This document shows positions 1-26,500 of a DNA stretch of 64,000 bases, piece by piece. Source of the DNA: a virus; the IMG/VR virus record IMGVR_UViG_3300045988_154156. One strand, 5' to 3'. Under the pieces are notes generated by a model. The model worked only from the letters and a program-made list of their open reading frames with translations. It ran no database searches and had not been told where the DNA came from. The translations under genes were made by a program, and so were the position numbers. Position 1 is the first letter of the stretch; every line of letters begins with the position of its first letter.

Positions 1-108
1 TCTGGTTCAATGCGTAAATTGGTATCTGATGGATTTGTAGAAAAAGTGAGTCAAAATCCAATTGTTTATACTTTAACAGAAAAAGGTAAAAATATTGAAA
101 TTGTGTAA
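1..108 (+). CDS. 3' end of a CDS truncated by the window edge (…KLVSDGFVEKVSQNPIVYTLTEKGKNIEIV*); looks like a winged-helix C-terminus
   Basis: Open frame from base 1 to TAA at 106-108; a strong RBS for the next gene follows. Confidence 0.35.
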   Translation, partial: SGSMRKLVSDGFVEKVSQNPIVYTLTEKGKNIEIV

Positions 109-130
109 TTATTAAGGAGAAAAATAATTT

Positions 131-1063
131 ATGAAGAAAACTATGGAAAATGTAACTCATATTGAAGGTATTTTGTATGAACATAATTTGGAATCAAAGG
201 TTTCTGGACCTAATTCTAAGACTCCTGGCACTCCTTTTATTTCTGGTACTATTAGCATCGCTACTGATGATGCTTTAACTAATATCGTTCAAGTTCATTT
301 TACTTATGTAACTCCTACAACTTCTAAGGGAAGTGCAAACGCCACTTATACTCTTCTTCAGAATATTATTGATGGCTTAGTAGGTACTTATATGAAAGAT
401 GGTGCTGATAAGGCTGCTAAACTTCGTGTTGATTCTGCTATTGGTTTGAATGAATTCTATTCTGATCGTAACGGTAAGTCAGAACTTGTTAGCACTAAGC
501 GCAATGAAGGTGGATTTGTTCATCTGACTAATACTTTAGCAGAAGATGAAAAAGTAAGAAATACTTTTAAGTGTGATATGGTTATTACTGGTGTAACTCA
601 TATTGATGGTGATGAAGAAAAGAAACTTCCTGAGAAGGTAATTGTTAAGGGAGCAATTTTTGATTTCCGTAAAGCTTTATTGCCAGTTGAATTCTCTGCT
701 ACCAATCCAGGAGCTATGGCTTATTATGAAGGACTTGGTGCTTCTAACTCAGAACCAGTATTTACTAAGGTTTGGGGTCGTCAGGTATCTGAAACTATTG
801 TGCGTGAGATTCGTGAAGAATCTGCTTTTGGTGAAGATAATGTTCGTGAAGTACAGACTACTCGTAAGGACTTTGTAATTACTGGTGGCGCTAAGGATCC
901 ATATCCTTGGGATGACGAAGAATTCTTGACCGCAAAGGAATTAACTGATGCTATGACTCAGCGTCAGACTTATCTTGCTACTATTAAGCAAAGACAAGAT
1001 GAATACAAGGCGGCTAAAAATGCAAGCATCGCTGCTCCTGCTCCCGGTGGATTTAATTTTTAA
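131..1063 (+). CDS. Hypothetical protein, 310 aa with no in-frame TAG; possible ssDNA-binding or annealing partner of the adjacent Sak4-like ATPase (uncertain)
   Basis: Intact ORF with RBS AAGGAGA 8 nt upstream, TAA stop, and position next to the Sak4-like gene. Confidence 0.7.
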   Translation: MKKTMENVTHIEGILYEHNLESKVSGPNSKTPGTPFISGTISIATDDALTNIVQVHFTYVTPTTSKGSANATYTLLQNIIDGLVGTYMKDGADKAAKLRVDSAIGLNEFYSDRNGKSELVSTKRNEGGFVHLTNTLAEDEKVRNTFKCDMVITGVTHIDGDEEKKLPEKVIVKGAIFDFRKALLPVEFSATNPGAMAYYEGLGASNSEPVFTKVWGRQVSETIVREIREESAFGEDNVREVQTTRKDFVITGGAKDPYPWDDEEFLTAKELTDAMTQRQTYLATIKQRQDEYKAAKNASIAAPAPGGFNF

Positions 1064-1078
1064 TAAATAGCCAATAGA

Positions 1079-1104
1079 TGATGGTCTCTAGAGAGGCCAT
1101 CATG
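1079..1104 (+). other. 11-bp stem-loop (ATGATGGTCTC-TAGA-GAGGCCATCAT) downstream of the first gene, with no T-tract
   Basis: Inverted repeat read directly from the sequence. No U-run follows, so it is not a classical intrinsic terminator. Confidence 0.3.
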
Positions 1105-1219
1105 CTAAACTAAATATATTATATGATGATGATGTTTTGTTAAATAAAGAAGAAATAGATAAATTACTAAATGAATATTGTAAATTATTTGAATTGGAGA
1201 AAAAGGAGAAAATTAAATA

Positions 1220-2209
1220 ATGGCTATTAATCTGTTAGGCCTTACCCCTCATAAGGTTAGTCGTGATCTTTCTGGATATATTACTTATATCTATGGTGCT
1301 GAAAAATCTGGTAAAACTACTTTTGCCTCTCATATGCCTTCAGCATTGATTCTTGCTTTTGAACGAGGATATAATGCTTTACCTGGTGTATTAGCACAGG
1401 ATATTACTTCTTGGGGCGATATGAAGCAAATTCTTCGAGAATTAAAAAAGCCAGAAGTAAAAGAAAGATTTAAGTCTATCGCAGTTGATACAGTTGATAT
1501 TGCTGGATAGTTCTGCGAAAAATATGTTTGCGCACAAAATAGTGTAGATACTCTTTCTGGTATTCCTTATGGACAAGGTTGGACCCTTGTAAAGAAAGAG
1601 TTTGAGGAAATGTTTAGAACTATTGCTCAGCTTGGTTATGCTGTCGTTTTTATTTCTCATAGTAAAGATAAGACTTTTAAGACTAAGACTGGCGTAGAGT
1701 ATAATCAAATTATTCCTACTTGCCCTACTTCTTACAATGATATTGCTAAGAATATGGCTGATATTTATGCTTATGCTGAGAAATATACTGAAAATGGTGA
1801 AGCTAAAGTTCGTTTAATCCTACGTTCTGTTGATAACAGTGCTGAAACTGGTTGCCGTTTTAAGTATATTGTTCCTTCTATTGAATTTTCTTATGAAAAT
1901 TTGGTTAAGGCATTGAATGATGCTATTGATAAGGAAGCTCAGATGTATGATAATAAATTCGTTACTGATCAGCGTGAAGCAACTTCTATTGCTAAGAATT
2001 ATGATTATGATGCTTTAATGGCTGAATTCCAGCAATTAGTTGGTGATTTAATGGCAAAGAATTCTGAGTATTATGCTCCTCGTATTACAAGAGTTATTGA
2101 AAAGTATCTTGGTAAGGGTAAGAAAATTTCAGAAGCTACAATGGATCAGGCAGAGTTCATTAGTTTAATTATTAATGAGATTAAGGAAGAATTAGTTCCT
2201 CAGTCTTAA
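1220..2209 (+). CDS. Sak4-like RecA-family recombination ATPase (AAA_24), with one in-frame TAG at 1508-1510
   Basis: Walker A GAEKSGKTTFA and Walker B-like IAVDTVD. ORF fragments 1220-1510 and 1610-2209 share a frame and are joined by a single TAG. RBS GGAGAAAAAGGAG. Confidence 0.8.
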
Positions 2210-2218
2210 TAAGATAGA

Positions 2219-2258
2219 CCCAAGGCGAGATAAAAATCGCCTTGGGTTGATTTTTTTA
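2219..2258 (+). terminator. Rho-independent terminator (CCCAAGGCGA-loop-TCGCCTTGGG followed by TTGATTTTTTT)
   Basis: 10-bp GC-rich stem followed by a T-run, immediately after the Sak4-like gene stop. Confidence 0.75.
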
Positions 2259-2275
2259 TTATTTTATGTTATAAT
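2247..2275 (+). promoter_or_regulatory. Sigma-A-type promoter TTGATT-N17-TGtTATAAT
   Basis: -35 at 2247-2252, 17-nt spacer, extended -10 TGTTATAAT at 2267-2275, about 35 nt upstream of the gene starting at 2311. Same architecture as the promoters at 11545 and 19976. Confidence 0.65.
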
Positions 2276-2310
2276 ATATAAAAGAAGAATTTTATGAAAG
2301 GATATTTTAA

Positions 2311-3261
2311 ATGAATATTAGTTTAACCACTAATTGTAATAATCATTGCCCTTATTGTTTTTAGCAAAATATTCATAATTTAAATATGGAAATATCCATC
2401 GAAAATTATGAAAAAATTTTAAAATGGGGACAGGATTATGATAAAGAATATATCCAATTATTGGGTGGAGAACCTACTTTATATTTAAAATTGCCTGATA
2501 TATTTGAAATAACAAATAATTATAAAAAGAAAATAAGTATAATTACTAATTTATTAGGATATAAAGATAATATTGAATTAATAACTCATTGTAATAATAT
2601 AGGTAGTATATTAATTAATACTACTTATGATGATAATAAAAAAGAATTATTTTTATCTAATATGGAACTTATAAAAAATACTTCCTTTTATAAAAGTTTT
2701 AGTATTACTTTAATGCCTAATAAAATTAATAATATAAAATATATTAACCGAATACGAGAATTATCTTTATTATTTCCAATGATTACGGAATTAAGAATTG
2801 GTTTAATGACTCCTTGCCCTGACTAGGATGATTTTTTTATTTATAATTATTCAGAGGATATAATTTTTTTAATAAAAGAATTACAGGGATCTAATTTAAA
2901 TTATTTAACTTTTGATTGTAGTATTAATTTATGTGAATTAGATTTTTCATTATTTAAATTATTAGCTGAAAATTAGATAAATAATTTATTTATTAATTTA
3001 ATAAATGTCACTTGTCCTGGGCCATGTATAGATATTATGCCTAATTTAGATATAAAATATTGTTATTCTATGTCTAAATTTTTTCCAACTAAAAATATTA
3101 CAGATTTTAATAATTATACTGAAGCTTATAATTATTATAATTCTTTAAATAAAAAATATTAGATTAAAAATAATAAATGCTTAAATTGCATTAATTTCCC
3201 AATATTATGTTAGCCTTGTCCTAGTATAGATTAGGCATTATTAAAAATAGAAAAGAGATGA
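2311..3261 (+). CDS. Radical SAM enzyme with C-terminal Cys-rich SPASM/twitch-like domain (about 316 aa, about 6 in-frame TAG)
   Basis: N-terminal CNNHCPYC (CxxxCxxC) motif, then LLGGEPTL. C-terminal Cys clusters (CSINLCE…CPGPC…CLNCINFPILCQPC). Single frame with all interruptions TAG and a TGA terminator. Confidence 0.75.
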
Positions 3262-3265
3262 ATAT

Positions 3266-3793
3266 ATGGCTCATAAAGTAAAATGTATCTATTGTTAGCA
3301 AGTATTTGATAGAGATAAATATCCATATATTCAAGTATCTTCTAGACGATATGCGCATCCTGCTTGCGCACAAGCAGAGAATAAAAAAAAGCAAGAAGAA
3401 GAAAATGATAAAGAAAAATTTGAAAAATATGTAATGAATTTACTTGATGAAACTTATATTAATGCTCGTGTACGCAAATAGATGAATACATATATAGAAG
3501 ATTATAATTATACTTATTCAGGAATGTTAAAAGCTTTAGTTTATTTTTATGAAGTAAAAGGTAATAGTAAGGCAAAAGCTAATGGTGGTATAGGAATTAT
3601 TCCATATATTTATAAAGATGCTTATAATTATTATTATAATTTATGGATGGCGCAACAGTCGAATCAAGGTAAAGTTATACAAGATTATGTACCAAAAGAA
3701 AAAGTGGTAATAATTCCATTACCAAAACGAATACCTATGAAACGAAGACTATTTACATTCTTGGATGATAAGGAGAATTAGAGTGAGTAGTAA
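3266..3793 (+). CDS. Small zinc-ribbon-like protein with a Tyr-rich C-terminal half (MAHKVKCIYCQQ…HPACAQ… IPYIYKDAYNYYYNLW)
   Basis: ATG at 3266; C-x2-C…H-x2-C motif; two internal TAGs in frame; runs into the dnaB start. Confidence 0.5.
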
Positions 3794-5312
3794 ATATGTT
3801 GATTCGACTGCTATTATGTAGGTAATTGGTTGTGTTTTTAATACTCCTCAATTATTAGATTTAACTGATAAATATACTATAACTGATGAAGATTTTGCTG
3901 ATCAATTTCATCGTATAGTTTTTGGAGCTATTTATAAGATTCATGAATTAGGAGCTGAAAAAATTACATTAGAAAATATTTCTGATTTTTTAGCAGACCG
4001 TCCTAAATATGAAGGAATTTATAAAGCTAACAAAGGTGAAGAATGGTTATTAAAAGTAGCTGAAAATGCTAAAATTTTATCTTTTGATTATTATTATGGT
4101 CGTTTAAAAAAGATGTCATTACTTCGTGCTTATGATAATTATGGTATTGATGTATCTTTTATATATGACCCTGATAATATCTTAGATGTTGAAAAAAAGC
4201 AATTACAAGAAGAAAATTTAGATAACTCTACATTGGAGCATATTGCGCAATTAGTAGATGATAGAATAGATGAAATTAAATATGAATATGTAAATAATGT
4301 AGAAGGTGTCGCTGTACAAGCAGGTACTGGAATATTTGATTTAATTGAATCTCTTAAAGAGCATCCAGAAGTAGGAAGCCCTCTATATGGTCCATTAATT
4401 AATACAGTTACTCGTGGCGCCAGATTAAGAAAGTTTTATTTGCGATCTGCTGCTACTGGCGTTGGTAAAACTCGTTCTATGATTGCCGATGCTTGTAATA
4501 TTGCTTGCAATAAAATATATAATGAAAATTTCGGTTGGATTAAAAATGGCGTTAGTGAACCAGTTCTTTATATCGCAACAGAACAAGATTTAAGTGAAAT
4601 CCAAACAATGATGTTAGCTTTTCTTTCTAACGTGAATGAAGAGCATATTATAAATGGCTCATATGAAGGCGATGAAGAAGAAAGAATAATTCAAGCTGGC
4701 CAAATTATTGAAGATAGTCCTATTTACTTACGAGAATTACCTGATTTTTCATTACAAGATGTAGAAAATGAAATTAAAAAAGCAATTAGAGATTATGGAG
4801 TAAAGTATATTTTTCACGATTATATTCATACAAGTATGAAAATTTTAGAAGAAATTACTAAACGAAGTGGTGGAGTTAAATTGCGTGAAGATAATATTCT
4901 TTTTATGTTATCAACTCGATTGAAAGATATTTGTAATCAATATGGAGTATTTATTATGTCTGCTACATAGCTGAATGGTGATTATGTAGATTCTAAAACT
5001 CCTGACCAAAATTTACTTCGTGGCGCAAAATCTATTGCAGATAAAATTGACTATGGTTCAATTTTATTAAATGTTCAAGATGATGATTTAATTGCTCTAA
5101 AAGATATATTAAGTGCTAATTTATTTGATACTCCAACTATTAAAATGTCTGTTTATAAAAATAGACGAGGTAGATATAAAGGAATAATTTTATGGTGTAA
5201 AGCAGATTTAGGTGTATGTAGAATTACTCCTATGTTCTGTACTACTTATAATTATGAATTAGTACCTATTGATGATATGAGAATTATGATTGAAGAAGAA
5301 TCCGCTTTTTAA
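3783..5312 (+). CDS. dnaB: DnaB-family replicative DNA helicase (509 codons, 2 in-frame TAG)
   Basis: GTG start 7 nt after AAGGAG. N-terminal DnaB-like domain (…VIGCVFNTPQLLD…), Walker A AATGVGKT, and IFHDYIHT…MSAT motifs. Frame continuous through ORF 4113-4970. Confidence 0.85.
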
Positions 5313-5329
5313 TGAAAGGAAAATATATT

Positions 5330-5512
5330 ATGGATAAGAAAGAAATTATTGGTGGAACTATTGAATATAAGATGCCTAAAGAAATGGCTAATATGTATTT
5401 AAAGACTGCTAAAGGAGAGTTTGCTAAAAAGCATCCTCAAGAATACCTTATTAAGGTAGTTAATGAAGAATTCGGCGTTAAAGGTACTTGTATTAATGTA
5501 ATTACATTCTAA
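5330..5512 (+). CDS. Small hypothetical protein (about 60 aa)
   Basis: ATG with AAAGGA RBS. The stop overlaps the primase start (TAATG). Confidence 0.4.
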   Translation: MDKKEIIGGTIEYKMPKEMANMYLKTAKGEFAKKHPQEYLIKVVNEEFGVKGTCINVITF

Positions 5513-6615
5513 TGATAGTATTTGATAAATTAGAAATAAGACAAGCATTAACTCTTGATAATATTTTTGATTTATTAATTGAATGGGGTGGAGATCCTGA
5601 ATATACTGATTTTGGGATAGTCTCCACCACCATTTGTCATAATCATCCAGGTGAAGGTAGCCGTAAATTATATTATTATGATAATACAGGACTATTTAAG
5701 TGTTACACTGGATGCGATTCTACTTTTGATATATTTGAATTGTGTTCTAAGATTATGAATATTCAATTTGCTGAAACATTTGATTTAAATGATGCTGTTT
5801 TATGGATAGCTCGCAGATTTGGGTTATCAGGTATGATTAAAGATGATAATGAAGGCAAAACTTTAGATGATTGGAAAGTTCTTTCTAATTATGCTAAAAT
5901 TCAAGAAATTGAATTAAAAGATAGTAGAACAACATTAAAAACTTATGATGATTCAATATTATCAAGATTAAATTATAAAGTAAAACTTACTCCTTGGTTA
6001 AATGAAGGAATTTCGCAAGAAGTCCTTACCAAGGCACATATAGGTTATTATCCAGGAGGAGATTAGATTACCATTCCTCATTATGATGTAAATGGTAATT
6101 TTATAGGATTGCGCGGACGTACTATGTGTAAATCTGAAGCGGAAGTATATGGCAAATATCGTCCTATTAAAATTAATAATCAATTATATAATCATCCTCT
6201 TGGACTAAACTTATATGGTTTAAATTGGAATAAACAAGCTATTAAAAAAATGAAGAAGGTAATTATTTTTGAATCTGAAAAATCAGTTTTGAAATATGCT
6301 ACTTATTTTGGATGGAATAATAATATTTCAGTAGCTTGTTGTGGTAGTAATATTTCTTCACATCAAATTCAATTACTATTAGATTGCGGTGTAGAAGAAA
6401 TTATTATTGCTTTTGATAGATAGTTTCAGGCAATTGGTGATGATGAATTTAAACATCTTAAAATTAATTTATTAAAAACTAGAACTAAATATAAAAATTT
6501 TGTTACTATATCTTTTATATTTGATAAAAATATGATAACTCAATATAAAAATAGTCCAATAGATGAAGGAAAAGAAAAATTTCTTCAACTATTTAAAGAA
6601 AGGATTTTAATTTAA
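5512..6615 (+). CDS. dnaG: DnaG-like DNA primase (zinc-binding plus TOPRIM), 2 in-frame TAG
   Basis: CHNHPGEG…CYTGC zinc-ribbon-like motif. TOPRIM-like IIFESEKSV and IIIAFDR. Located right after dnaB. Fragments 5512-6066 and 6109-6423 are in one frame, joined by TAG. Confidence 0.7.
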
Positions 6616-6616
6616 C

Positions 6617-8356
6617 GTGGAATATCATTTAAAGGCTCCAATGATTCCAGGTTATAGTCCTATAGAACAAATTCTTAATAATAGAGGTATTAAAAATATC
6701 TATCATTATTTACATACTACAGATGATGATATTCTTGATCCTTCTACTATTATGAATATAAAAAATGGGGCCATAATGCTGGTTTCACATATAAATAATA
6801 ATGATAAAATTTTAATATAGATAGACAGCGATTGTGATGGTTATACATCCGCCGCTGCTTTAATTAATTATTTACATAAAATCTGTCCTGCTTTTGTAGA
6901 AAATAATATTTCATATCGAGTACATGAAGGCAAATAGCATGGGATATTATTAGATAGTATTGGCAATGATATTAAATTGGTTATTGCTCCAGATTCTTCG
7001 TCAAATGATTATGAAGAACATAAATAGCTTAAAGAACATGGAATTGATGTATTAGTAATAGATCATCATGAAGCAGATAAAGTTTCTCAGTATGCTTGTA
7101 TAATTAATAATTAGTTATGTAACTATCCAACTAAATCATTATCTGGTGTCGGCATGGTTTATAAATTTTGTAGTTATTTAGATAAATTAATGAATGTAAC
7201 ATATGCTGATGACTTATTAGATTTAGTTGCTCTTGGCTTAATTGCTGATATGATGGATTTACGAGATTATGAAACTAAACGGCTTATTGATAAAGGTTTA
7301 AATCATATTATTAATCCATTTATTAGAACGATGATTAATAGAGATGCTTTTCATTTTTCGAATGGTATTACCCCAATTGATGTAGCATTTTATATTGCTC
7401 CTTTAGTAAATGCTGTTACTCGAGTAGGCACATAGGAAGAAAAATTAGTATTATTTGAATCTATGTTAGATTTTAAAGGATATGAATTAATTCCTTCAAC
7501 TAAGCGTGGTTGTTCTGGTAATGCCGAGCCTAGAGTAGAGTAGGCTTGTAGAAATTGTACTAATATTAAAAATAGATAGACTAGAACTAGAGATGCTGCT
7601 TTAGAGACTATTGAGAATTTAATTACTGCTAATAATTTATTAGAAAATAAATTATTAGTTATTTAGTTAGATAATATTTCTGCAGATCGCAATTTAACAG
7701 GATTAATTGCTAATTAGTTAATGAGTAAATATTAGCGTCCAGTTTTAATTTTAAATAAAGTATTTCATAATGATGGAACAATTACTTGGGAAGGGTCTGG
7801 ACGTGGTTATGATAAATCTAGTTTGAAAGACTTTAGATAGTTCTGTCAAGATACTGGATTGGTTATGTATGCGGAAGGCCATCCTAATGCTTTTGGATGC
7901 GGTATTACTGATGATAAAATTTAGTTATTTATTACAATTACAAATGAAGTACTAAAAAATGTTTAGTTTATTCCATCTTATACAGTTGATTTTATTTATC
8001 ATAATGTTGATGTAAAGCCTGAAGACATTACAGATATTGCTACATTAAAAAATCTTTGGGGACAAGGAATAGAAGAAGCGTTAATTGCTTTGGAAGATGT
8101 TCCTGTGACTGCTGAAAATTTAAATTTAATGGCAAAAGATAAAAATCCTACATTAAAAATTACTTTACCAAATAAAATTAGTATTATTAAATTTAAATCT
8201 TCAGAAGAAGAATTTGAAAAATTATATACTGAACATGGTAAAGTATCTATTAATATTATTGGGCGTTGTTCTGTTAATGAATGGAACGGAATTATAACTC
8301 CTTAGATTTTAGTAGAGGATTATGAAATTGTCAGTAGGAGTGAATATTATTTTTAA
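6617..8356 (+). CDS. RecJ-like DHH-family ssDNA exonuclease / phosphoesterase (about 579 codons, about 14 in-frame TAG)
   Basis: DHH motifs DSDCDGYTSAAAL and GIDVLVIDHHE, plus a GGH-like region (EGHPNAFGCGI). GTG start after GAAAGGA. Every interrupting stop is TAG. Confidence 0.7.
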
Positions 8357-8735
8357 AATAAAAAATATTGAAAGCGCAACTTTTTATGATAAAGATGGAA
8401 ATGAAGTTTTATATTGTAACGGAATAAATAATAGAATCAATCTTTCAGTAGATTCTAATGATTTAAAAGTGTATGGTGGAAAAGGTAATCCTAATATTGG
8501 CTAGATACATTATGAAAAAATTTTAAACCTTTCATTACAAATGGATGAAATTAATATTTCATAGAGTCTGCTCCGCCCGGAGAGGATAGACACAACCGAA
8601 AACCTAAATCAAAATGACGATTAGAAAATTTTCGATCAAAATGAATGGAATAAATTTTTATCTATGTTAGACTCGCCTCCACTAGAAGAAGAATTAACTT
8701 TAATTGGAAATGAATTTTTAAAGGATAAAGAATAA
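8322..8735 (+). CDS. Hypothetical protein (about 137 aa, 3 in-frame TAG); contains the GC-rich patch at 8565-8600
   Basis: Continuous frame MKLSV…GNPNIG(TAG)IHYEKILNLSLQMDEINIS(TAG)SLLRPERIDTTEN…DD(TAG)KIFDQNEW…KDKE* ending at TAA. Confidence 0.5.
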
Positions 8736-8738
8736 AAT

Positions 8739-9020
8739 ATGAAAGAATTAAAAAAAGTAGTAATGAAAGCACAACAATTTGATAATATATCAGAAAATTT
8801 ACAAAATATAGAAAAACATACAAAAGGTTTTATGTATGATAGCCTTTGTTATAGATATCAACTTGCTAGGTATAAAGCCTGCGAAGCAGATGCTATGGAT
8901 TTAATTATAACAAAAGGTTTATCTAAAAGAGAAGCTGAAGCTAAAGCTAGAAATTTATATGAAAGAGATTGTCTACGATTTTATCAAATTCTTGATGAAG
9001 CAATTGGAGAACATGATTAA
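8739..9020 (+). CDS. Small hypothetical protein (93 aa); paralogue of the next gene with an identical C-terminal tail …ILDEAIGEHD
   Basis: ORF with RBS. C-terminal 10 aa nearly identical to gene 9020-9346. Stop/start overlap TAATG. Confidence 0.55.
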   Translation: MKELKKVVMKAQQFDNISENLQNIEKHTKGFMYDSLCYRYQLARYKACEADAMDLIITKGLSKREAEAKARNLYERDCLRFYQILDEAIGEHD

Positions 9021-11603: not shown

Positions 11604-14600
11604 ATGAGAAGTTATTTTGGTATTCATAATCACACTCATTATTCTAATATTAGACTATTAGACTCAATTAATCGTCCTCAAGCATTAATTGATAAAGCTA
11701 TTGAATTAGGTTTATCTGGAATAGCAATTACTGACCATGAATGTTTATCTGCGCATATGGAAGTTAATCAATATGCGAAGAAATTATAGGAAACAAATCC
11801 TAATTTTACTATCGCACTTGGTAATGAAATTTATTTAACTGAAACTCGTCAAACTGGACAAAAATATTATCACTTTTTATTATTAGCTAAAGATGCTATT
11901 GGTCATAAAGCATTAAGAGAATTAAGTTCTATTGCTTGGATTAATAGTTATATTGATAGACGTATGGAACGTGTTCCTACTTTAAAAAGCGAATTAAAAG
12001 ATGTAATGTCTAAATATAAAGGTCATGTTATTGCTACTACAGCTTGTATTGGTGGAGAACTTGGTAGTTGTTTACTTCCAATGTATGAAGCTAATTTAGT
12101 TAATGACCAAAATACAGTAACTAATTATTCAATTCAAATAATGGATTTCATTAATTATTGTATTGAAGTATTTGGTGAAGATGATTTTTATCTTGAGTGT
12201 GCGCCTTCTAATAAAGAAGACCAGATGATTGTTAATAGACAAATTTATAAAATATCTCAATCTACTGGATTGAAAATGGTAATTGGTACTGACTCTCATT
12301 ATTTAACAAAAGAAGATAGAGCAATTCATAAAGCGTATTTAAATTCTAAAGAAGGCGAACGAGAAGTTGATACTTTCTATGAATTTGCGCATTTAATGAC
12401 AAGCGATGAAATCTTTGAATTAATGGAAAGTGATGCTGACACTTGGGATAGTAATAAATCAGGAAAAGAAATTTTAGATTGGATTTTAGATAATACTCAA
12501 AAAATTCAAAGTAAAATTTCTTTTTATTCTTTAGAAAGAAAGCAGATTATTCCAAAAGTAGAAGTAACTGATTATCCTCAATCATTAGCTGGTTGGTTTG
12601 AGCGCACAGAAAAATATCCTATTTTATGTAGCTTATTAATGAGTGATAACCCACAAGAAAGATATTGGGTTAATGAATGTTATATGTCTTTATTAGAAAA
12701 GATATATGATAAAAGTATTTCAGATGATAAGTTAGATATTTATTTAAATCGTCTTGAAATTGAAGCTGATATTATTAAAGATATTGGTGAAAAATTGGAT
12801 GATTGTTTGTTTGCTTATTTTAATACTTTTAAACACTATATTGATTTGTTTTGGAAATGCGGTTCTATTGTAGGTCCTGGTCGTGGTTCAGCAACAGGAT
12901 TTTTATCCAATTATTTATTAGGTATTACACAGCTTGATCCTATCCGCTGGGGTTTACCTTATTGGCGTTTTTTAAATAAAGAACGTGCTGAATTACCTGA
13001 TATTGATATTGATCTTGCGCCAAGTAAACGTCCTGCTATTTTTAAAGCAATTCGTGATGAACGTGGTGATTTAGGCTTAGTCCAAGTTGCTACATTTGGT
13101 ACTGAAGGAACTAAATCTGCGGTATTAACAGCTTGCCGTGGATATAGATCAGAAGATTTTCCAGAAGGTATTGATAATGATCAAGCACAATATATGTCTT
13201 CTCTAATTCCTCAAGAAAGAGGATTCTTATGGCCAATTCATGATGTTGTTTATGGCAATGAAGAAAAAGACCGCAAGCCAATTCAAGCTTTTATTAGAGA
13301 AGTAAATCAATATGATGGCCTGTTAGATATTATTATTTATATTGAAGGTATTATTAATAAACGTTCTTCTCATGCTTCTGGTGTTATTTTATATGGTGAT
13401 GATCCATTTGAAACAGCATCTTTTATGCGTACTCCCAGTGGTGATATTATCACTTGTTATGATTTGCATAAAGCAGAGGCAGCAGGCGATACTAAATATG
13501 ATTTCCTTGTAACTGAAGCATCTGATAAAATAATTACTTGTTATCAATTACTATTAAAGGATAATCAAATCCCTGATTTACCTTTAAGAGAATTTTATAA
13601 TAAATATATTCATCCAGAAGTAATAGACACAACAGATCAACGTATTTGGGATCACTTGGCGGCTGGCGATGTACTTGATGTATTCCAGTTCTCTACTGGA
13701 GTTGGATTAGCAATTGCTAAGAGATTAAAACCGCAAAATCCTATGGAAATGACGGCAGCAAATGCTATGATGCGTTTAATGTCTGAAAAAGGTAAAGAAT
13801 CTCAGCAAGATAGATATTATCGAATTCAACATCAAGGTATTCAAGTATTCGACGCTGAAATGAAGCAAAATCATTTGCCACAAGATTTAATTGATAAATT
13901 TCATAAGCATTGTGATAAATATTATGGTTGTTGCCCTATTCAGGAACAAATGATGGAAATTCTTATGGATATTGCGGGATTTACTTTAGGTGAAGCAAAT
14001 AGCGCTCGTAAAGTTGTTGCTAAAAAACAAATGTCAAAGATTCCACAATTAAAAGAGCAAGTATTTAGTAAATTTGATGATCCTAAAGTTGCTGAATACT
14101 TCTGGGAAATTGCGGTTGCTCCACAATTAGGTTATGCTTTTAGTTTAAATCATTCTTTACCTTATTCTTTTGTAGCAATTCAAATGATTTATTTAGTAAT
14201 AAATTATAATCCTATTTATTGGGATACCGCTTGTTTAATTGTTAATAGTGGTTCATTGGAAGATAATACGGAAGAAGAGCTAGTCGATATTTATGCTCCT
14301 GAAGGTGACGATTTAGCAAATGGTGTAACATTTGAAGATTTACCAGATAAGAGCGCAAAAATTAGAAGAACTGCTTCAACTGATTATGGAAAAATTGCTA
14401 AAGCTATTAGTGATATTCAAAAAGCAGGTATTGAAGTCGGTTTGCCAGATATTAATAAATCTAAGTTTGGTTTTGCTCCTGATATTGAAAATAATAAAAT
14501 TCTTTTTGGATTAAAAGGAATGTTGAATGTTGGTGATGATTTAGTTAATACCATTATTACTAACCGTCCATATATTTCTCCAAAAGATTTTTTATATAGA

Positions 14601-15599
14601 ATTAAGCCTAGTAAACAAGCTATGATATCTCTTATTAAAGGCGGTGCTTTTGATAATATGATGGATAGAAAATTATTAATGGGCTGGTATATTTGGGAAA
14701 CTTGTGATAAAAAGAGTCGTATTACTTTACAGAATATGAGTAGCTTAATTAAATATAAATTATTACCAGAAGATACTGATAAGCAAATTATGGCTCGTCG
14801 TGTTTTTGAATTTAATAGATATTTAAAAGCAGTTTGTAAAGATACAGCAAGTTTTTATAAATTAGACACAAGAGCAATTAATTTCTTAGTTGAAATTGGT
14901 GAAGATAATTTAATTGAAGAGGGCACGAAGCTGGATCAAAAGATATGGGATAAAAAAGTCTATCAACCTTGGATGGATGTATTTCGCGATTGGATTAGCG
15001 AAAATAAAACAGAAATTCTTGAAAATTTAAACGCAGTTATTTTTAAAGAAGATTGGAATAAATATACTGGTAAAAATAATTTATCAGCCTGGGAAATGGA
15101 AGTACTTTGCTTCTATTATCACAGTCACGAATTGAAAGACATTAATAATAAAAAATATGGATTTGCAGATTTCTTTGCTCTTCCGCAAGAACCAGAAGTA
15201 GATAGAAGCTTCTCCAAAGGTGGTAAGACAATTCATATCTATAAATTAAATACAATCTGCGGTACGTGTATTGCTAAAAATAAAACTAAAAGTACTGTTA
15301 CTATTCTTACTACTACTGGTCCTGTTGAAGTAAAATTCAGAAAAGAATATTTCAGTTTATTTGATAAACAAATTTCAGAAAAAGGACCGGATGGAGTAAA
15401 ACATATCGTCGAAAAGTCTTGGTTTAACCGAGGGAGTATGATTGTAGTTATGGGCGTGCGCCAAGGAGATAATTTTATAGCTAAAAAATATGCTTCTTCT
15501 CCTGGTCACCAGTTATATAAAATTGATGAAATTTTTGATGATGGAACTATTACATTACGTAATACTCGTTATCAGGGAGGAATAGAAGAAGATGTATAA
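11604..15599 (+). CDS. dnaE: DNA polymerase III alpha subunit-like replicative polymerase (PHP plus polymerase core), 1,331 aa with a single in-frame TAG at codon 62
   Basis: PHP domain HNHTHYSNIRLLDS…AITDHE. The 1,211-aa uninterrupted ORF 11964-15599 is in frame with the 11604 ATG and joined by TAG 11787-11789. RBS AAGAAAGGA. Confidence 0.9.
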
Positions 15600-16232: not shown

Positions 16233-18476
16233 ATGATTTATATTATAAAGCGCAATGGCACAATTGTTTTATTTGATAAAAATAAAATTATTAATGCTAT
16301 TAATAAAGCATTTATTGAAGTTGATGGATAGCTTTATGAAAATGATACCGCTCAAGATATCGCTAATGATATTGAACGTCAAGTAAATTATTTCCCTGAT
16401 GGTAGTGTAGGGGTAGAAGATATCCAAGATTGGATTGAAGATTATTTGATGCGCTCTGAGCGTCGTGATGTAGCTCGTGCATATATTAGATATAGATATA
16501 AAAAAGAAGTTGCTCGTGAAAAGAAAGATGATTTTATTCAAGCCATTAGGAAAAAGCTTGATGGTAAAGATATTAAAAATCAAAATGCTAACGTTGATGA
16601 AGCATCATTTGGCGGACGTATTGGCGAAGCCAGCAGTGTAGTAACTAAACAATTAGCTTTAGATTATATCTTATCACCAATGGCAAGAGATAATCATTTA
16701 AATAATATGATTTATACTCATGATCTTGATGCTTATTATGTTGGTTCTCATAATTGTTTAAGTATTCCTTTTGATGATTTACTTGCTAATGGATTTAATA
16801 CTCGCTAGACAGATGTACGTCCAGCAGGTTCAGTAAATACAGCTTTTCAATTAGTGGCTGTTATTTTCCAAATTCAAAGTCTTTCTCAATTCGGCGGCGT
16901 TAGTGCCACTCATCTTGATTGGACTATGGTTCCTTATGTAAGAAAAAGTTTTTATAAACATTGGAAAGACGGAATGCGTTATATTGAAAAAGTTGATTCA
17001 TGTGGGAAAGCATCTAATCCAGAAAATTTATCTATTGCTGATAATGGATATTTAGAATTTGAAAAAGCATATAAATATGCTATGGATATGACTATTAAAG
17101 AAGTCCATCAAGCAGTAGAAGGTATGTATCATAATCTTAATACTTTACAATCTCGTTCAGGAAATTAGTTGCCATTTACCTCTATTAATTATGGTACTTG
17201 TACTCTTCCAGAAGGAAGAATGATTACTAAAGCACTTTTGGATGTATCTATTGAAGGTATTGGCAAATTACATAAAACTTCTATTTTCCCTTGCGGAATT
17301 TTTCAATGTATGAAGGGAGTTAACCGTGAACCAGGTGACCCAAATTACGATTTGTTTAAACTCGCATTATAGTCCACCGCCCAAAGATTATATCCCAACT
17401 ACGCGAATGTTGATTGGTCAGGGAATGCTGGATATGATATCAATGACCCACGCACCTATTTTTCTACAATGGGATGTAGAACAGCCAATGGATACGATAT
17501 TAACGGTTTCGGTCAGCTAAAAGATGGTCGTGGTAATATTTGCCCAGTAACTATTATTATGCCCACTTTAGCTATGGAAGCTAAAGAAATGGCAGATCAT
17601 CAATATTTTGAAGATGGTTTAGATGCTCAAAAAGAACAATATCGTTGCAGATGTTTTATGAATTTATTAGATCAAAAAATTAATGAAGCAAGAATTCAAT
17701 TGATGGAACGTTTTGACTGGATTTGCTCACAAGACCCAAAATCTGCAAAATTTATGTATGAAAATAATTTAATGGCAGGTTATATTCCAGAAGAAGGAAT
17801 TAGAAGTGCCCTTAAGCATGGTACATTAGCTATAGGATAGATTGGTTTAGCTGAAACTCTTCAAATTCTTATTGGATGCGATCATACTGATCCAAGAGGA
17901 ATGAAAATGGCAAAAAAGATTGAAGAATTATTTAAACAACGTTGTGCTGAATTTAAAGAAGAATATAAACTTAATTTTGGAGTATATTATACGCCAGCTG
18001 AAAATTTATGTTATACAGCAATGCAAAAATTCAAAGAAAAATACGGCATCATACCTAATGTTTCTGATAAAGAATTTTTCACTAATAGTATCCATGTTCC
18101 CGTATGGAAGAAAATTTCTCCCTTTGACAAAATTGATATTGAAAGTCAGTTAACAGGTTATTCTTCTGCTGGATGTATTACCTATGTAGAATTAGATTCT
18201 ACTGTAAAGCATAATATTGATGCTCTTGAACAAATTGTTAATTATGCTATGGATAAAGATATCCCTTATTTTGCAGTAAATGTGCCTAATGATACTTGCC
18301 TTAACTGCGGATATTGTGATGAATTTAATGATAAATGTCCTGAATGCGGTAGTACCAATATTCAATAGCTACGTCGTGTGACTGGTTATTTAACTGGAAA
18401 CTACAAAACTGCTTTTAACTATGGTAAACAAAAAGAAGTAGAAGCACGAGTAAAACATACGGGGTAGATGGAATGA
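16233..18476 (+). CDS. nrdD: Anaerobic ribonucleoside-triphosphate reductase NrdD (about 747 codons, about 7 in-frame TAG)
   Basis: ATP-cone at the N-terminus. C-terminal Zn-ribbon CLNCGYC…CPECG followed by the glycine-radical motif RRVTGYL. Five ORF fragments in one frame, all joined by TAG. RBS GGAGGA. Confidence 0.9.
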
Positions 18477-18820: not shown

Positions 18821-19494
18821 ATTATTCTAAAAGACCTTTAAAAAAGCATTAGAAAATAAAAGATAAATTAGAAAAAGCTACTGAAGTATTAAATAAAAAA
18901 ATTGACTCGGAATTAGAGGCAATTATAAAAAAAATATTTTCTTGGATAGCTGATGATGAAAAGATTAATACAAAAGAACATCGAGATGATTTAATAAATT
19001 TATTTTATAAAGCTTTAGAAAATCTTTATTCTGAAATTAATATATAGTTAGGAAAGATTTATAAAACCGTAGCTCCTTTTAATTTAAAGGATATAACAGA
19101 TTTAACTTTTCAAGAAGATGGAAAAACATTAGATGAGCGAATTACTAAATATTTAGATGATTTAGAAGAAAAAAGATTATCTGGTGATTTTCCAGATAAT
19201 TTAAAAAGCTTTGGTGCTAATATGTATTCTCGTCTGTTAAATAATGAAGGTAGATATTTATTTACTCATTTAATGAAAATGAAAATAAAACCTGTAGCTT
19301 CAATACTTGTAATTGAAACAGGAACTTGCGATGATTTATGCGGTGAATGGAATGGAGAATACCCTGCAGAAGAAGATGTTCCTCTTCCTCCCTACCATAC
19401 TAATTGTTAGTGTTCTGCTTATTATATTGAAACTGATGATGAAGATGATGTTAATGACTTAGATTTAGAAGTGGAGGAAGCAAAAAATATATGA
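18817..19494 (+). CDS. Protein with a Phage-Mu-F-like C-terminal motif (…PLPPYHTNC(TAG)CSAYYIE…), 225 aa
   Basis: RBS GGGAGG. C-terminal PPxHxNCxC signature typical of MuF/SPP1 gp7-like domains. Unusual position between nrdD and nrdG. Confidence 0.45.
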
Positions 19495-19979
19495 AATATG
19501 CAGGAATTATAAAAAATGATATTGCCGCAGCACCTGGAGTATGTGTTTCATTCTTTGTTCAAGGTTGTCCTAATCATTGTAAAGGATGCCATAATCCTGA
19601 AACATGGGATTTTGATGGTGGTAAAGAATTTACGAGTGATATATTTACTGAAATTACTCAAGCATTATAGGCAAATGGTATTCATCGAAATTTTTGTATA
19701 ATGGGTGGCGAACCATTATGTGAACAAAATCAATTGCTTACTTTACTTTTGGTCCGTACTATAAAAGAAAAACTTCCTAATACAAAAATTTATGTATGGA
19801 CTGGATATTATTATGATGATTTAATTAAACAAAAAGATAATGGAAAACTTCAAGAAATTCTTAGCAGTATTGATGTCTTGATTGATGGTCCATATATCCA
19901 AGAGCAAAGAGATGTATCATTGCCTATGCGTGGAAGTAAAAATTAGCATATTATTAATTTAAATTCAAATAAAAATTGA
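19491..19979 (+). CDS. nrdG: Anaerobic RNR activating enzyme NrdG (radical SAM activase)
   Basis: CPNHCKGC cluster near the N-terminus and IMGGEPL. Overlaps the upstream stop (ATATGA). 1 TAG. True end is either TAG 19944 or TGA 19977. Confidence 0.85.
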
Positions 19980-20843: not shown

Positions 20844-21089
20844 ATGAAATATTTAATCAGTACAACAGATGTTTATAGAGTTCCAACAGTAGCAGAAGTA
20901 GAATAGTTACATGAAGAATTAATTAATGATACTCATTTTACTTTAAATGCTTTTAGTTATAAGACTAAACAAATTAAGCAGAAGGGCGAAATCATTGATG
21001 AATATCAACTAGTTACTGCTAAGAAATTATTTAATGATGAAAAAGAACCCGGTACAAATATTGATATTAAGTATGAGGTAGAATTTTAA
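20844..21089 (+). CDS. Hypothetical protein (about 81 aa)
   Basis: ATG directly after the previous TAA; 1 TAG; TAA stop overlaps the dut start. Confidence 0.4.
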
Positions 21090-21619
21090 TGAATAGATTT
21101 GAAAGAGTTTCAAGATTTCCCGACGCAGTTCTCCCTATTCGTAAGACAGCAAATTCTGCGGGTTATGATTTAACAGTCGCAGAAGATATTGTAATTCCTC
21201 CTTTATCTAAGCACATTTAGGCATTAGATGTTGATTAGGAATATGGTATTACAACGATGGATTTGACTGAAATGGCTGCTTTAACTAAATCTAAGAAAGC
21301 TAAACCTACTCTTGTTTCTACTGGAGTTAAATGTCAATTAAATCCTGATTGCTATTTGGAATTATCTGTGCGCAGTTCTACTCCTTTAAAATATTGGCTA
21401 ATTTTAGCTAATAGTGTGGGTATTATTGATTCTGACTATTATAATAATCCTGATAATGAAGGAGAGATTTTTTTACAATTAATTAATCTCTCTCCATATA
21501 ATATCCAATTGCATAAAGGTGATGTAATTGGACAAGGCATTATTAAAAAGTATGAGATTACTGATGATGATAATGCTACTGGGAATAGACTTGGAGGCTT
21601 TGGTTCTACGTCTAAATAA
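21089..21619 (+). CDS. dut: dUTP pyrophosphatase (dUTPase)
   Basis: Motifs AGYDL, GIIDSDY and C-terminal RLGGFGSTSK. 2 in-frame TAG near the N-terminus. Confidence 0.85.
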
Positions 21620-25795: not shown

Positions 25796-26500
25796 ATTAT
25801 CATAGTTTCAATATGTATTTGTGATAGAGATGATTCACATGGATAGTCAATGATTACTATTATTAAAGATTATTTGTTTAAACATAATGTAATGGGAAGT
25901 ATAAATTATTTTAATAATGCTAAAGATTTATTAAGACAACCAATCTATGACGTCTATTTCTTAGATATTTTAATTAGAGATATGAATGGCATTGAGCTTG
26001 GAAAAATATTAAAACAAAAAAATGAAAAATGCGAAATAATTTATATAACTGATTAGCGTAATTATGGACCACAAACCTATGAAGTAAAGGCATTTAATTA
26101 TTTATTAAAACCTATAAATATAGAAGAAATAAATGATACTTTAGATAGATTATTTGAAAAAATTAAAAGTGAATATAGATATTTAAGAACTAAAGATGGG
26201 GAAGAAAGAATTCCACTTAAAGAATTATTATATGCTGATATTATAGGAAGAAATTTAACTTGTCATTTCTATGATGGTGAATTAATTCAAAGTACAACTT
26301 TAAAAAAATCTTTTGAAAAAATGATAGGTCCTTTAAAAGATAATCCAGATTTTGTCTTTGTTGCACCGAGTTTATTAATTAATTTAAATTATATTAGTTC
26401 AATGAACTTAAACTATTTAACTTTTACTACTGGTGAAGTATTATATTTCCCAAAGAGCGCGTATAAATTAATTTGTGAAAGATGGAAGCAATATAGTTAA
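25796..26500 (+). CDS. AgrA/ComE-like response regulator with C-terminal LytTR DNA-binding domain; the conserved N-terminus is encoded upstream of the first ATG (25850)
   Basis: Receiver-like MITIIKDYL…YFLDILIRDMNGIELGKIL aligns with AgrA. LytTR signature IPLKELLYADIIGRNLTCHF…FVFVAPSLLINLNYI. Upstream in-frame ICICDRDDSHG(TAG)SM matches the AgrA N-terminus IFICEDDPKQRENM, directly after RBS AAAGGAGGAG, with no AUG. Confidence 0.65.

What the first reader, a model, noticed from the sequence alone, without database searches (positions are those of the whole stretch)
2311..3793. A third rSAM/SPASM gene in the early region, paired with a Tyr-rich zinc-ribbon small protein
Gene 2311-3261 has CNNHCPYC, LLGGEPTL and a Cys-rich SPASM-like C-terminus. 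It is driven by its own strong promoter. A 175-aa protein immediately follows it, with an N-terminal C-x2-C…H-x2-C ribbon and a Tyr-dense segment (IPYIYKDAYNYYYNLW). This looks like an enzyme-substrate or enzyme-partner pair separate from the tail-fibre rSAMs. The pairing suggests the phage deploys rSAM chemistry at two different stages.
Basis: inference. Interest (0 to 1): 0.6.

Follow-up and report, generated by a model that had tools for sequence, protein, structure and literature searches.

The report
Optional radical-SAM cassette in helicase operon
The radical-SAM gene is real, but it is an optional 957-base insert that landed just in front of a conserved phage DNA-replication gene, so the two neighbours are not an enzyme-substrate pair.

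Summary
Both ORFs exist only if TAG is read as glutamine, which holds across the whole window. Gene A (2311-3261, 316 aa, 6 in-frame TAG) is a functional radical SAM enzyme. It has CX3CX2C at residues 9-16, a GGE motif and seven invariant C-terminal cysteines. Its profile aligns over the full length with the SPASM maturases SuiB, TigE and CteB. It has no N-terminal RRE and reaches no curated family cut-off. dN/dS is 0.11.

Gene B (3266-3793, 175 aa) is a YorH-family protein. YorH is a core member of the SPbeta-type replication module (YorF, Sak4, YorH, DnaB, primase, RecJ-like, PolC). B has more than 1000 homologue clusters; A has 18. In 80 of 80 IMG/VR YorH loci, Sak4 and DnaB flank YorH directly and no relative of A lies within 5 kb.

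A contig 99% identical in the flanks lacks exactly window 2302-3258. The "own promoter" is the conserved terminator-promoter-RBS of the yorH-dnaB operon. Other lineages carry a GIY-YIG endonuclease or a LysM gene in the same slot, and one relative carries the rSAM 8 kb downstream.

Verdict: the enzyme call is right and the pairing is not supported. The substrate is unknown. This is a new member of a known kind, of low to moderate interest.

The parts
1220..2209 (+). Sak4-like AAA_24 ATPase (YorG homologue). Upstream neighbour, context only.
   Evidence: BLASTP to SPbeta YorG gives 30% identity over the full length, E=4e-39. Homologues carry PF13479.
2217..2248 (+). Intrinsic terminator that closes the yorF-sak4 unit.
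   Evidence: 12-bp stem with 7 GC pairs, followed by a T-run. The hairpin is kept in relatives through compensatory changes: CCCAAGG/CCTTGGG versus GCCGGAG/CTTCGGC.
2247..2275 (+). Extended -10 sigma-70-type promoter (TTGATT-17-TGtTATAAT). It is the ancestral promoter of the yorH-dnaB operon, not one specific to the rSAM.
   Evidence: Found by the scan. It is nearly identical in L108 and L110, where it directly precedes yorH, and in L112, where it precedes a GIY-YIG gene.
2302..3258 (+). 957-bp presence/absence cassette. It holds a 9-nt leader plus essentially the whole rSAM ORF; the stop codon (3259-3261) falls in the flank shared with L122.
   Evidence: L122 is 99.2% and 98.9% identical to window 1-2301 and 3259-4813 and lacks exactly this segment. 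TATGAAAGG flanks the insert as a direct repeat in L003.
2311..3261 (+). Gene A: radical SAM enzyme, 316 aa, with a SPASM-type C-terminal domain and no RRE. It has 6 in-frame TAG (=Gln) codons.
3266..3793 (+). Gene B: YorH-family protein, 175 aa. It has a Zn ribbon, a helical DnaD-like domain that includes the Tyr-rich helix, and an acidic tail. It is a core gene of the replication module.
3599..3646 (+). Tyr-dense segment IPYIYKDAYNYYYNLW (aa 112-127 of B). It forms part of the last helix of the helical domain.
   Evidence: P113, Y116, A119, Y122 and Y123 are invariant and W127 nearly invariant in 40 YorH homologues, most of them from rSAM-less lineages. The model shows a helix at 112-132.
3765..5312 (+). 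DnaB-type replicative helicase (YorI homologue). It overlaps or abuts the end of yorH. The start codon is approximate.
   Evidence: BLASTP to SPbeta YorI gives 36% identity, E=6e-119. The YorH-to-DnaB distance is -22 to +16 bp in 80 of 80 viral loci.

Best explanation
The window comes from a TAG=Gln recoded phage; contigs carrying near-identical yorH reach about 196-201 kb. Its replication module is of the SPbeta type. Gene B is the YorH orthologue, the small protein that always sits between the Sak4-like ATPase and the DnaB helicase. It consists of an N-terminal Zn ribbon, a DnaD/G39P-like helical domain whose last helix is the Tyr-rich segment, and an acidic C-terminal tail. It most likely acts in helicase loading or replisome organisation (inferred).

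Gene A is an accessory, strain-variable cassette. A 957-bp segment holding only the rSAM ORF was inserted between the Shine-Dalgarno sequence and the start codon of yorH, duplicating the leader. A is therefore transcribed from the pre-existing yorH-dnaB promoter as the first gene of that operon. The adjacency of A and B is a by-product of where the cassette landed.

A is a functional enzyme under purifying selection. It belongs to the SPASM branch of radical SAM enzymes. Shown: the CX3CX2C cluster site, the GGE SAM-binding motif, the partial TIM barrel, and a C-terminal domain with seven invariant Cys that align with the SPASM motifs of SuiB, TigE and CteB. Inferred: A reductively cleaves SAM to a 5'-deoxyadenosyl radical, abstracts a hydrogen atom from its substrate, and uses one or two auxiliary [4Fe-4S] clusters.

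A has no RRE, so it must recognise its substrate directly (as anSME does) or through a factor encoded elsewhere. The substrate is not identified. A protein or peptide target of phage or host is favoured, because the best full-length matches are peptide and protein maturases.
For: - Code.
- rSAM identity.
- SPASM homology: the 71-sequence profile aligns 9-309 with SuiB 136-440 (3.2e-16) and 3-315 with TigE. Its C..C.......C..C segment falls on their CX2CX5CX3C.
- Selection: dN/dS 0.107, and all six TAG codons are shared with a 96%-identical homologue.
- YorH identity and synteny.
- YorH family size: more than 1010 clusters against 18 for A.
- Neighbourhood: 0 of 80 viral YorH loci have a relative of A within 5 kb. 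All 80 have Sak4 87-283 bp upstream and DnaB -22 to +16 bp downstream.
- Empty site: a contig 99% identical in the flanks lacks the cassette. The leader repeat TATGAAAGG marks the junctions.
- Conserved terminator, promoter and RBS.
- Same slot, other cargo: a GIY-YIG endonuclease (L112-115) or a LysM gene (L086).
- Relocated rSAM: in L086 the rSAM lies between the UvrD-like helicase and PolC.
Against: - The substrate of A is unknown, and no neighbour is conserved across the family.
- The Pfam SPASM model does not hit, and the Cys spacing differs from the canonical motif: C-x2-C-x7-C-x2-C instead of x5 and x3.
- The direction of the polymorphism (gain or loss) is not determined.
- Co-transcription of A with yorH does not exclude that, in strains carrying A, YorH or another replisome protein is modified.
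Confidence: 0.85

Rival explanations
1. Enzyme-substrate pair. A post-translationally modifies the downstream YorH-like protein, for example at its Tyr-dense segment, and the two genes are a dedicated functional unit.
For: - The genes are 4 nt apart and co-transcribed.
- The same order occurs in L003-5 and L120.
- The closest full-length relatives of A are peptide and protein maturases.
Against: - YorH has more than 1010 homologue clusters and A has 18.
- 0 of 80 viral YorH loci have the rSAM nearby.
- A contig 99% identical in the flanks has YorH without A.
- L086 has both genes, but 8 kb apart.
- The Tyr motif is invariant in rSAM-less phages and lies in a structured helix, not in a variable core peptide.
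- A has no RRE.
Confidence: 0.07
2. A acts on a small molecule (a nucleotide, sugar-nucleotide or cofactor), as BlsE, viperin, MoaA or BtrN do. It would support or alter nucleotide or DNA metabolism during replication.
For: - A has no RRE and is small (316 aa).
- It is placed in the replication and nucleotide-metabolism arm.
- One family member is fused to a GT9 glycosyltransferase.
- Distant viral and bacterial relatives lie beside ATP-grasp genes and, judged by eye, sugar-nucleotide genes.
Against: - No NCBIfam nucleotide-rSAM model comes near its cut-off: NrdG2 31 bits against 131, QueE 19.6 against 260, MoaA 44 against 325.
- Matches to those families cover only the N-terminal core.
- Relatives encode ThyA together with DHFR, which points to ordinary dTMP synthesis.
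- The gene is dispensable at strain level.
Confidence: 0.25
3. A is a decaying passenger gene or an artefact of reading through stop codons, with no function.
For: - Six in-frame TAG codons.
- The gene is absent from a contig that is 99% identical in the flanks.
Against: - TAG is recoded across the whole window.
- dN/dS is 0.107, from 27 synonymous and 15 non-synonymous changes.
- All catalytic motifs and seven C-terminal Cys are intact and invariant across 71 homologues.
- The model is confident.
- The 90%-identity cluster of A's 96%-identical homologue P0001 has 62 member sequences.
Confidence: 0.04

Closest known systems
SPASM-domain radical SAM maturases: SuiB (5v1q), TigE (8vpo), CteB (5wgg), anSME (4k36)
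   Same: - CX3CX2C and GGE core.
- A C-terminal Cys-rich domain whose hairpin (C...DI.P....YC) and C-x2-C...C...C segment align with the SPASM motif.
   Different: - A lacks the roughly 100-aa N-terminal RRE of SuiB, TigE and CteB; the alignments start at their residues 136, 113 and 101.
- The Cys spacing is x7/x2 instead of x5/x3, and the Gly of the Gx4C element is Leu in A.
- The Pfam SPASM model and all NCBIfam equivalogs fail.
- No precursor peptide gene is adjacent.
- anSME also lacks an RRE, but A shows no specific sequence match to it.
SPbeta YorH (PF26927, phrog_4680)
   Same: - 35% identity with the same Zn-ribbon signature.
- The same position between the Sak4-like YorG and the YorI helicase.
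- The whole YorF-G-H-I-J-K-L order is colinear.
   Different: - The window protein is 19 aa longer.
- It carries TAG-encoded Gln.
- In this strain it is preceded by the rSAM insert.
- YorH itself has no experimentally known function; it is annotated as hypothetical in the SPbeta record.
DnaD-like domains and the SPP1 G39P helicase loader
   Same: - A small helical domain that superposes on 2zc2, 2i5u and 1no1 over most of their length.
- The gene lies immediately upstream of a DnaB-type helicase, as G39P does upstream of G40P (the SPP1 gene order is from my own knowledge).
   Different: - An additional Zn ribbon and an acidic tail.
- Function not tested.
Free-standing homing endonuclease and moron insertions between conserved phage genes
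   Same: - A single-gene insert with precise ends in an intergenic leader.
- Presence or absence varies among near-identical strains.
- The same slot holds a GIY-YIG endonuclease in other lineages.
   Different: - The cargo is a radical SAM enzyme with no nuclease.
- It brings no promoter or terminator of its own; it uses the operon's.
Uncharacterised multi-rSAM phages (Myoviridae sp. ctkfK18, Campylobacter CP21/CP220, Ralstonia RP12/RSF1)
   Same: Phage-encoded rSAM/SPASM-like proteins of unknown function, with similar folds (Foldseek TM 0.5-0.63).
   Different: - Only 11-21% identity.
- No tblastn match of A in 50,697 GenBank phage records at E<=1e-5.

Membership tests
Radical SAM superfamily (PF04055) | CX3CX2C motif that ligates the SAM-binding [4Fe-4S] cluster | tested here: met
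   C9, C13 and C16 are present and invariant in 71 homologues. The Pfam score is 50.6 bits against a cut-off of 29.5.
Radical SAM superfamily (PF04055) | GGE SAM-binding motif and a partial (beta/alpha)6 TIM-barrel fold | tested here: met
   [not shown]
Radical SAM superfamily (PF04055) | Reductive cleavage of SAM to a 5'-deoxyadenosyl radical | not testable with these tools
   Requires anaerobic biochemistry.
SPASM/twitch subfamily | C-terminal seven-Cys motif: CX9-15GX4C, gap, CX2CX5CX3C, gap, C | tested here: inconclusive
   Seven C-terminal Cys are invariant: C203, C208, C235, C251, one of the C289/C292 pair, C300 and C303. The spacing is C235-x15-C251 and C289-x2-C292-x7-C300-x2-C303. The Gly of Gx4C is Leu in A but Gly in some homologues. 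The profile aligns these segments with the SPASM motifs of SuiB, TigE and CteB. The Pfam SPASM model gives no hit at E<=1.
SPASM/twitch subfamily | Fold of the C-terminal auxiliary-cluster domain | tested here: met
   [not shown]
SPASM/twitch subfamily | Binding of one or two auxiliary [4Fe-4S] clusters | not testable with these tools
   Needs Fe/S quantification and EPR or Mossbauer spectroscopy.
RiPP maturase with RRE and an adjacent precursor | N-terminal PqqD-like RiPP recognition element | tested here: not met
   The first Cys of CX3CX2C is residue 9, and the model starts with strand 1 at residues 2-4. Alignments to SuiB, TigE and CteB begin after their RRE. An RRE encoded elsewhere was not searched for.
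RiPP maturase with RRE and an adjacent precursor | A co-conserved adjacent precursor or substrate gene | tested here: not met
   The downstream gene is YorH, which is conserved without the rSAM. The rSAM occurs in other positions and contexts.
Nucleotide-related rSAMs (NrdG, QueE, MoaA, viperin) | Score above the curated family cut-off, with a full-length match | tested here: not met
   NrdG2 31.3 against 131; QueE 19.6 against 260; MoaA 44.5 against 325; viperin 41.4 against 180. All matches cover the N-terminal core only. The same holds for 71 family members.
YorH family (PF26927, phrog_4680), gene B | Sequence match to the family profile and to SPbeta YorH | tested here: met
   phrog_4680 at 2.3e-22, covering aa 1-155. 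BLASTP to SPbeta YorH gives E=1e-17. The 98%-identical P0161 and most homologues carry PF26927. The local Pfam copy lacks this model.
YorH family (PF26927, phrog_4680), gene B | Position between the Sak4-like ATPase and the DnaB helicase | tested here: met
   Seen in SPbeta, phi36, L003, L086, L108-115 and 80 of 80 IMG/VR loci.
DnaD/G39P-type helicase-loading proteins, gene B | DnaD-like helical fold and helicase-loading activity | tested here: inconclusive
   [not shown]

The most novel reading that the evidence does not exclude
The cassette encodes a new RRE-independent, protein-modifying SPASM enzyme. Its target would be a replisome component made from the same operon (YorH's Tyr-rich helix, DnaB or the primase) or a host factor. 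It would give rSAM-plus strains a conditional advantage, for example escape from a host defence that senses or blocks the phage replisome. The family behind it has about 700 cluster representatives at E<=1e-30 and no characterised member, so it could hold a new radical reaction.
Probability: 0.1. Interest if true: 0.6.

Novelty: new member of a known kind. Interest (0 to 1): 0.3.

Why it matters
- The result removes a false lead. The Tyr-rich zinc-ribbon protein is a conserved replication protein, not an rSAM substrate.
- It gives a clean natural experiment. Contigs 99% identical in the flanks occur with and without a single radical SAM gene. That makes the gene's contribution testable by comparing strains, hosts and metaproteomes.
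- It marks the Sak4-yorH leader as an insertion hotspot in a large group of TAG-recoded gut phages.
- It delimits an uncharacterised RRE-less SPASM subfamily found in these phages and in gut Gastranaerophilales, Melainabacteria and Bacteroidales genomes.
- None of this is surprising to a specialist. Phage-borne rSAM genes of unknown function are already known.

Tried and rejected
- Standard-code ORF calling fragments both genes. It was replaced by TAG=Q translation.
- Megablast of window 1-9000 against GenBank phages found no match. tblastn of A against the same set found no match at 1e-5.
- Curated families gave no assignment for A. NCBIfam scans of A and of 71 family members never reached a cut-off. 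PADLOC matched only the generic N-terminal core of pVip. The Pfam SPASM model did not hit.
- I looked for a conserved partner gene around A's homologues in phage and bacterial contigs. The contexts differ: methyltransferase and sigma-70; ATP-grasp x2; ClpX and def-fmt; YcaO and TrxB; tandem paralogues. No partner emerged.
- Pfam scans of fusion proteins in the family gave one GT9 fusion and one double-rSAM protein. These are hints only.
- Source names for cluster members: none are recorded.
- Two tools rejected the TAG=Q translation, so the 96%-identical P0001 and the 98%-identical P0161 were used as stand-ins.
- The AFDB50 fold library was unavailable.
- Literature searches found nothing on YorH function or on this rSAM subfamily.

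Full report
**Observation**

Under the standard bacterial code the interval 2311-3793 holds only ORF fragments, because in-frame TAG codons interrupt it. Reading TAG as sense raises the total length of ORFs of at least 100 aa in the window from 34.6 kb to 67 kb. Recoding TGA gives far less gain. Recoding TAA inflates ORFs on both strands, as expected for 29% GC DNA. At 22 TAG positions that can be aligned with SPbeta orthologues, the SPbeta residue is Gln 8 times, against a background of 3.2%. The phage therefore uses code 15 (TAG=Gln). No tRNA gene lies in the window.

With that code, gene A is 2311-3261 (316 aa) and gene B is 3266-3793 (175 aa). A has TAG at codons 18, 172, 222, 284, 301 and 308; B has four.

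**Gene A is a radical SAM enzyme of the SPASM branch**

- Pfam Radical_SAM matches at 3.3e-13, above the gathering score. phrog_1802 ("radical SAM domain-containing protein") matches over the full length.
- A word-indexed search of 5.8 billion proteins found only 18 homologues. An exhaustive profile search found 696 cluster representatives at E<=1e-30, almost all 300-340 aa.
- In a 71-sequence alignment the following are invariant: C9, C13, C16, G52-G53-E54-P55, N103, R162 and seven C-terminal Cys (C203, C208, C235, C251, one of the C289/C292 pair, C300, C303).
- An AlphaFold model of the 96%-identical stand-in P0001 is confident (pLDDT 87.7, pTM 0.88).
- The family profile aligns over its full length with SuiB (E=3.2e-16) and TigE. 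Its C-terminal part aligns with CteB. The hairpin "C..iDI.Pd....yC" and the "C..C.......C..C" segment fall on the SPASM CX9-15GX4C and CX2CX5CX3C elements.
- The Pfam SPASM model itself does not hit. No NCBIfam model approaches its cut-off in A or in any of the 71 relatives.
- The CX3CX2C motif begins at residue 9, so there is no room for an N-terminal RRE. The alignments to SuiB, TigE and CteB start after theirs.
- A is under purifying selection. Against a 96%-identical homologue (L120) there are 27 synonymous and 15 non-synonymous differences, giving dN/dS 0.107. The values for B and Sak4 are 0.085 and 0.047. All six TAG codons of A are shared.

**Gene B is YorH, a core replication gene**

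- B matches phrog_4680 (2.3e-22) and SPbeta YorH (tblastn; BLASTP 35% identity, E=1e-17).
- The SPbeta order is yorF, yorG (Sak4-like), yorH, yorI (DnaB helicase), yorJ (primase), yorK (RecJ-like), yorL (polymerase). It is reproduced gene for gene in the window: 131-1063, 1220-2209, [A], 3266-3793, 3765-5312, 5512-6615, 6641-8356 and 11604-15599. SPbeta and Mammaliicoccus phi36 have no rSAM there.
- B has more than 1010 homologue clusters, most of them carrying PF26927 (Phage_SPbeta_YorH).
- In 40 diverse homologues the Zn-ribbon residues, the Tyr-rich segment (P113, Y116, A119, Y122 and Y123 invariant; W127 nearly so) and a C-terminal KKRKLFxFLDEEE tail are invariant or nearly invariant.
- The model (pLDDT 81.5) shows a Zn ribbon, a long helix, a three-helix domain whose last helix (112-132) is the Tyr-rich segment, and a disordered tail.
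- Together with its fixed position abutting the helicase gene, this suggests a role in helicase loading or replisome organisation. That role is inferred, not shown.

**The adjacency is an insertion artefact**

1. In all 80 IMG/VR loci that encode a YorH homologue (48-96% identity), the Sak4-like gene ends 87-283 bp upstream and dnaB starts -22 to +16 bp downstream. None has a relative of A within 5 kb.
2. In contigs of about 150-205 kb from TAG-recoded relatives, the Sak4-yorH slot is either empty (L108-111) or holds a GIY-YIG homing endonuclease (L112-115). In L086 it holds an 87-aa LysM gene. In that same contig a 38%-identical homologue of A lies 8 kb downstream, between the UvrD-like helicase and PolC. 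The L086 YorH keeps the Tyr motif.
3. The IMG/VR contig behind L122 is 99.2% identical to window 1-2301 and 98.9% identical to window 3259-4813. It lacks window 2302-3258. This 957-bp difference comprises the rSAM ORF (all but its stop codon) plus 9 nt of leader.
4. The empty site reads GAATTTTATGAAAGG|TGTGAATATATGG(yorH). In L003 the sequence TATGAAAGG is present on both sides of the rSAM. In the window the right-hand copy has diverged.
5. The terminator hairpin (kept through compensatory changes), the TTGATT-17-TGnTATAAT promoter and the AGAAAGGA ribosome-binding site upstream of A are conserved in relatives, where they directly precede yorH. The "own strong promoter" is therefore the promoter of the yorH-dnaB operon. 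A is carried as the first cistron of that operon.

**What A does**

No neighbour is conserved across the family. The contexts seen are:

- a methyltransferase and sigma-70 in a 192-kb recoded cattle contig;
- rSAM, two ATP-grasp genes, rSAM and a gene of about 190 aa in an unassigned JGI contig (L007) and in Muribaculaceae and Vampirovibrio contigs;
- ClpX | rSAM | def-fmt in a contig whose rSAM is identical to one in a Cyanobacteria (Melainabacteria-type) MAG; orthologues (35-46% identical) occur in eight further Gastranaerophilales/Melainabacteria-type MAGs, sometimes as tandem paralogues, with varying neighbours;
- YcaO | rSAM | TrxB-like | Lgt in a 25% GC standard-code contig;
- tandem copies in L119.

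One family member is fused to a GT9 glycosyltransferase. The enzyme therefore appears to be stand-alone.

The best full-length sequence and fold matches are peptide or protein maturases, and an RRE is absent. I therefore favour direct recognition of a protein or peptide substrate, in the style of anSME. This is an inference.

**Comparison with what is known, and novelty**

A is a new, uncharacterised member of the SPASM radical SAM group. B is a member of the YorH family. The arrangement resembles the moron and free-standing homing-endonuclease insertions common between conserved phage genes. Phage-encoded rSAM/SPASM proteins of unknown function are already on record: Myoviridae ctkfK18, Campylobacter CP21/CP220 and Ralstonia RP12/RSF1 are fold neighbours with TM 0.5-0.63. 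A has no match in 50,697 GenBank phage records. TAG recoding in large gut phages is also known (bioRxiv 10.1101/2021.08.26.457843; PMC10607447).

**Verdict**

- The sequence observations are confirmed once code 15 is applied.
- The enzyme classification is supported.
- The enzyme-substrate pairing and the "own promoter" are not supported.
- Interest is low to moderate (0.3). The useful by-product is a natural pair of rSAM-plus and rSAM-minus strains, which makes the function of this cassette testable.

Noticed in passing
whole window; genes 131-1063, 1220-2209, 3765-5312, 5512-6615, 11604-15599 versus 2311-3261, 3266-3793, 6641-8356: TAG is recoded to Gln across the window, and no suppressor tRNA lies in these 64 kb. 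TAG density is very uneven within one replication module. It is 0-0.5% of codons in the YorF, Sak4, DnaB, primase and PolC genes, but 1.9-2.5% in the rSAM, YorH and RecJ-like genes.
   Followed up: partly
window 29747-30709 (-) and 30702-31976 (-); neighbour 28010-29743 (-): Two further rSAM genes overlap each other inside the tail-fibre module. The 320-aa one is a 25%-identical full-length paralogue of A. The adjacent 577-aa protein carries a (D/Y)DTPYRDY repeat rich in Tyr and Asp at about aa 105-140. Homologous rSAM pairs occur in IMG/VR contigs L016-L018, near genes that look by eye like NeuB-type or cytidylyltransferase-type sugar genes.
   Followed up: partly
L122 6548-7617 and 8102-8888 (equivalent to window 4814 and 5300-5327): The rSAM-minus strain carries a 1.07-kb insertion inside dnaB with a 236-aa GIY-YIG ORF (probably an intron or homing element). 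It also carries a 0.79-kb insertion after dnaB with a Cys-rich 237-aa ORF. Both are absent from the window.
   Followed up: partly
L112-L115 4321-4998; L086 741-1004: In other lineages the same Sak4-yorH slot holds a 225-aa GIY-YIG/NUMOD homing endonuclease or an 87-aa LysM protein. The leader of the yorH operon therefore looks like an insertion hotspot.
   Followed up: yes
window 3740-3793 (C-terminus of B) and the A5 alignment: YorH proteins end in a conserved basic-then-acidic tail, KKRKLFxFLDEEE. The model predicts it to be disordered. It looks like a short protein-interaction motif.
   Followed up: no
L087-L095, L089/L090: The bacterial relatives fetched with the P0013-led alignment (35-100% identical to P0013, itself about 30% identical to A) are concentrated in gut Gastranaerophilales and Melainabacteria MAGs. 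They often occur as two or three tandem paralogues with no conserved neighbours.
   Followed up: partly
window 25850-26500 (+): A phage-encoded response regulator with receiver and LytTR DNA-binding domains sits alone on the + strand inside the late (- strand) region.
   Followed up: no
window 16233-18476 and 19491-19979 (+): An anaerobic ribonucleotide reductase NrdD-like gene (identified by eye) and an NrdG-type activase with CX3CX2C at aa 26. The activase is the fourth rSAM-type gene of the window. A dUTPase-like gene lies at 21089-21619.
   Followed up: no
window 2294-2314: A six-codon upstream ORF (MKGYFK) has a stop codon that overlaps the ATG of A. In L003 the equivalent ATG is in frame and was called as the rSAM start (MKERIILV...). 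This is probably a remnant of the duplicated leader.
   Followed up: no
L014 10231-10825: In a 267-kb viral contig, two small proteins (106 and 99 aa) with Cys-rich repeats (for example TVDCSTIQCNTINCTTINCS) lie about 1.3 kb downstream of a 26%-identical homologue of A. They could be peptide substrates in that lineage.
   Followed up: no
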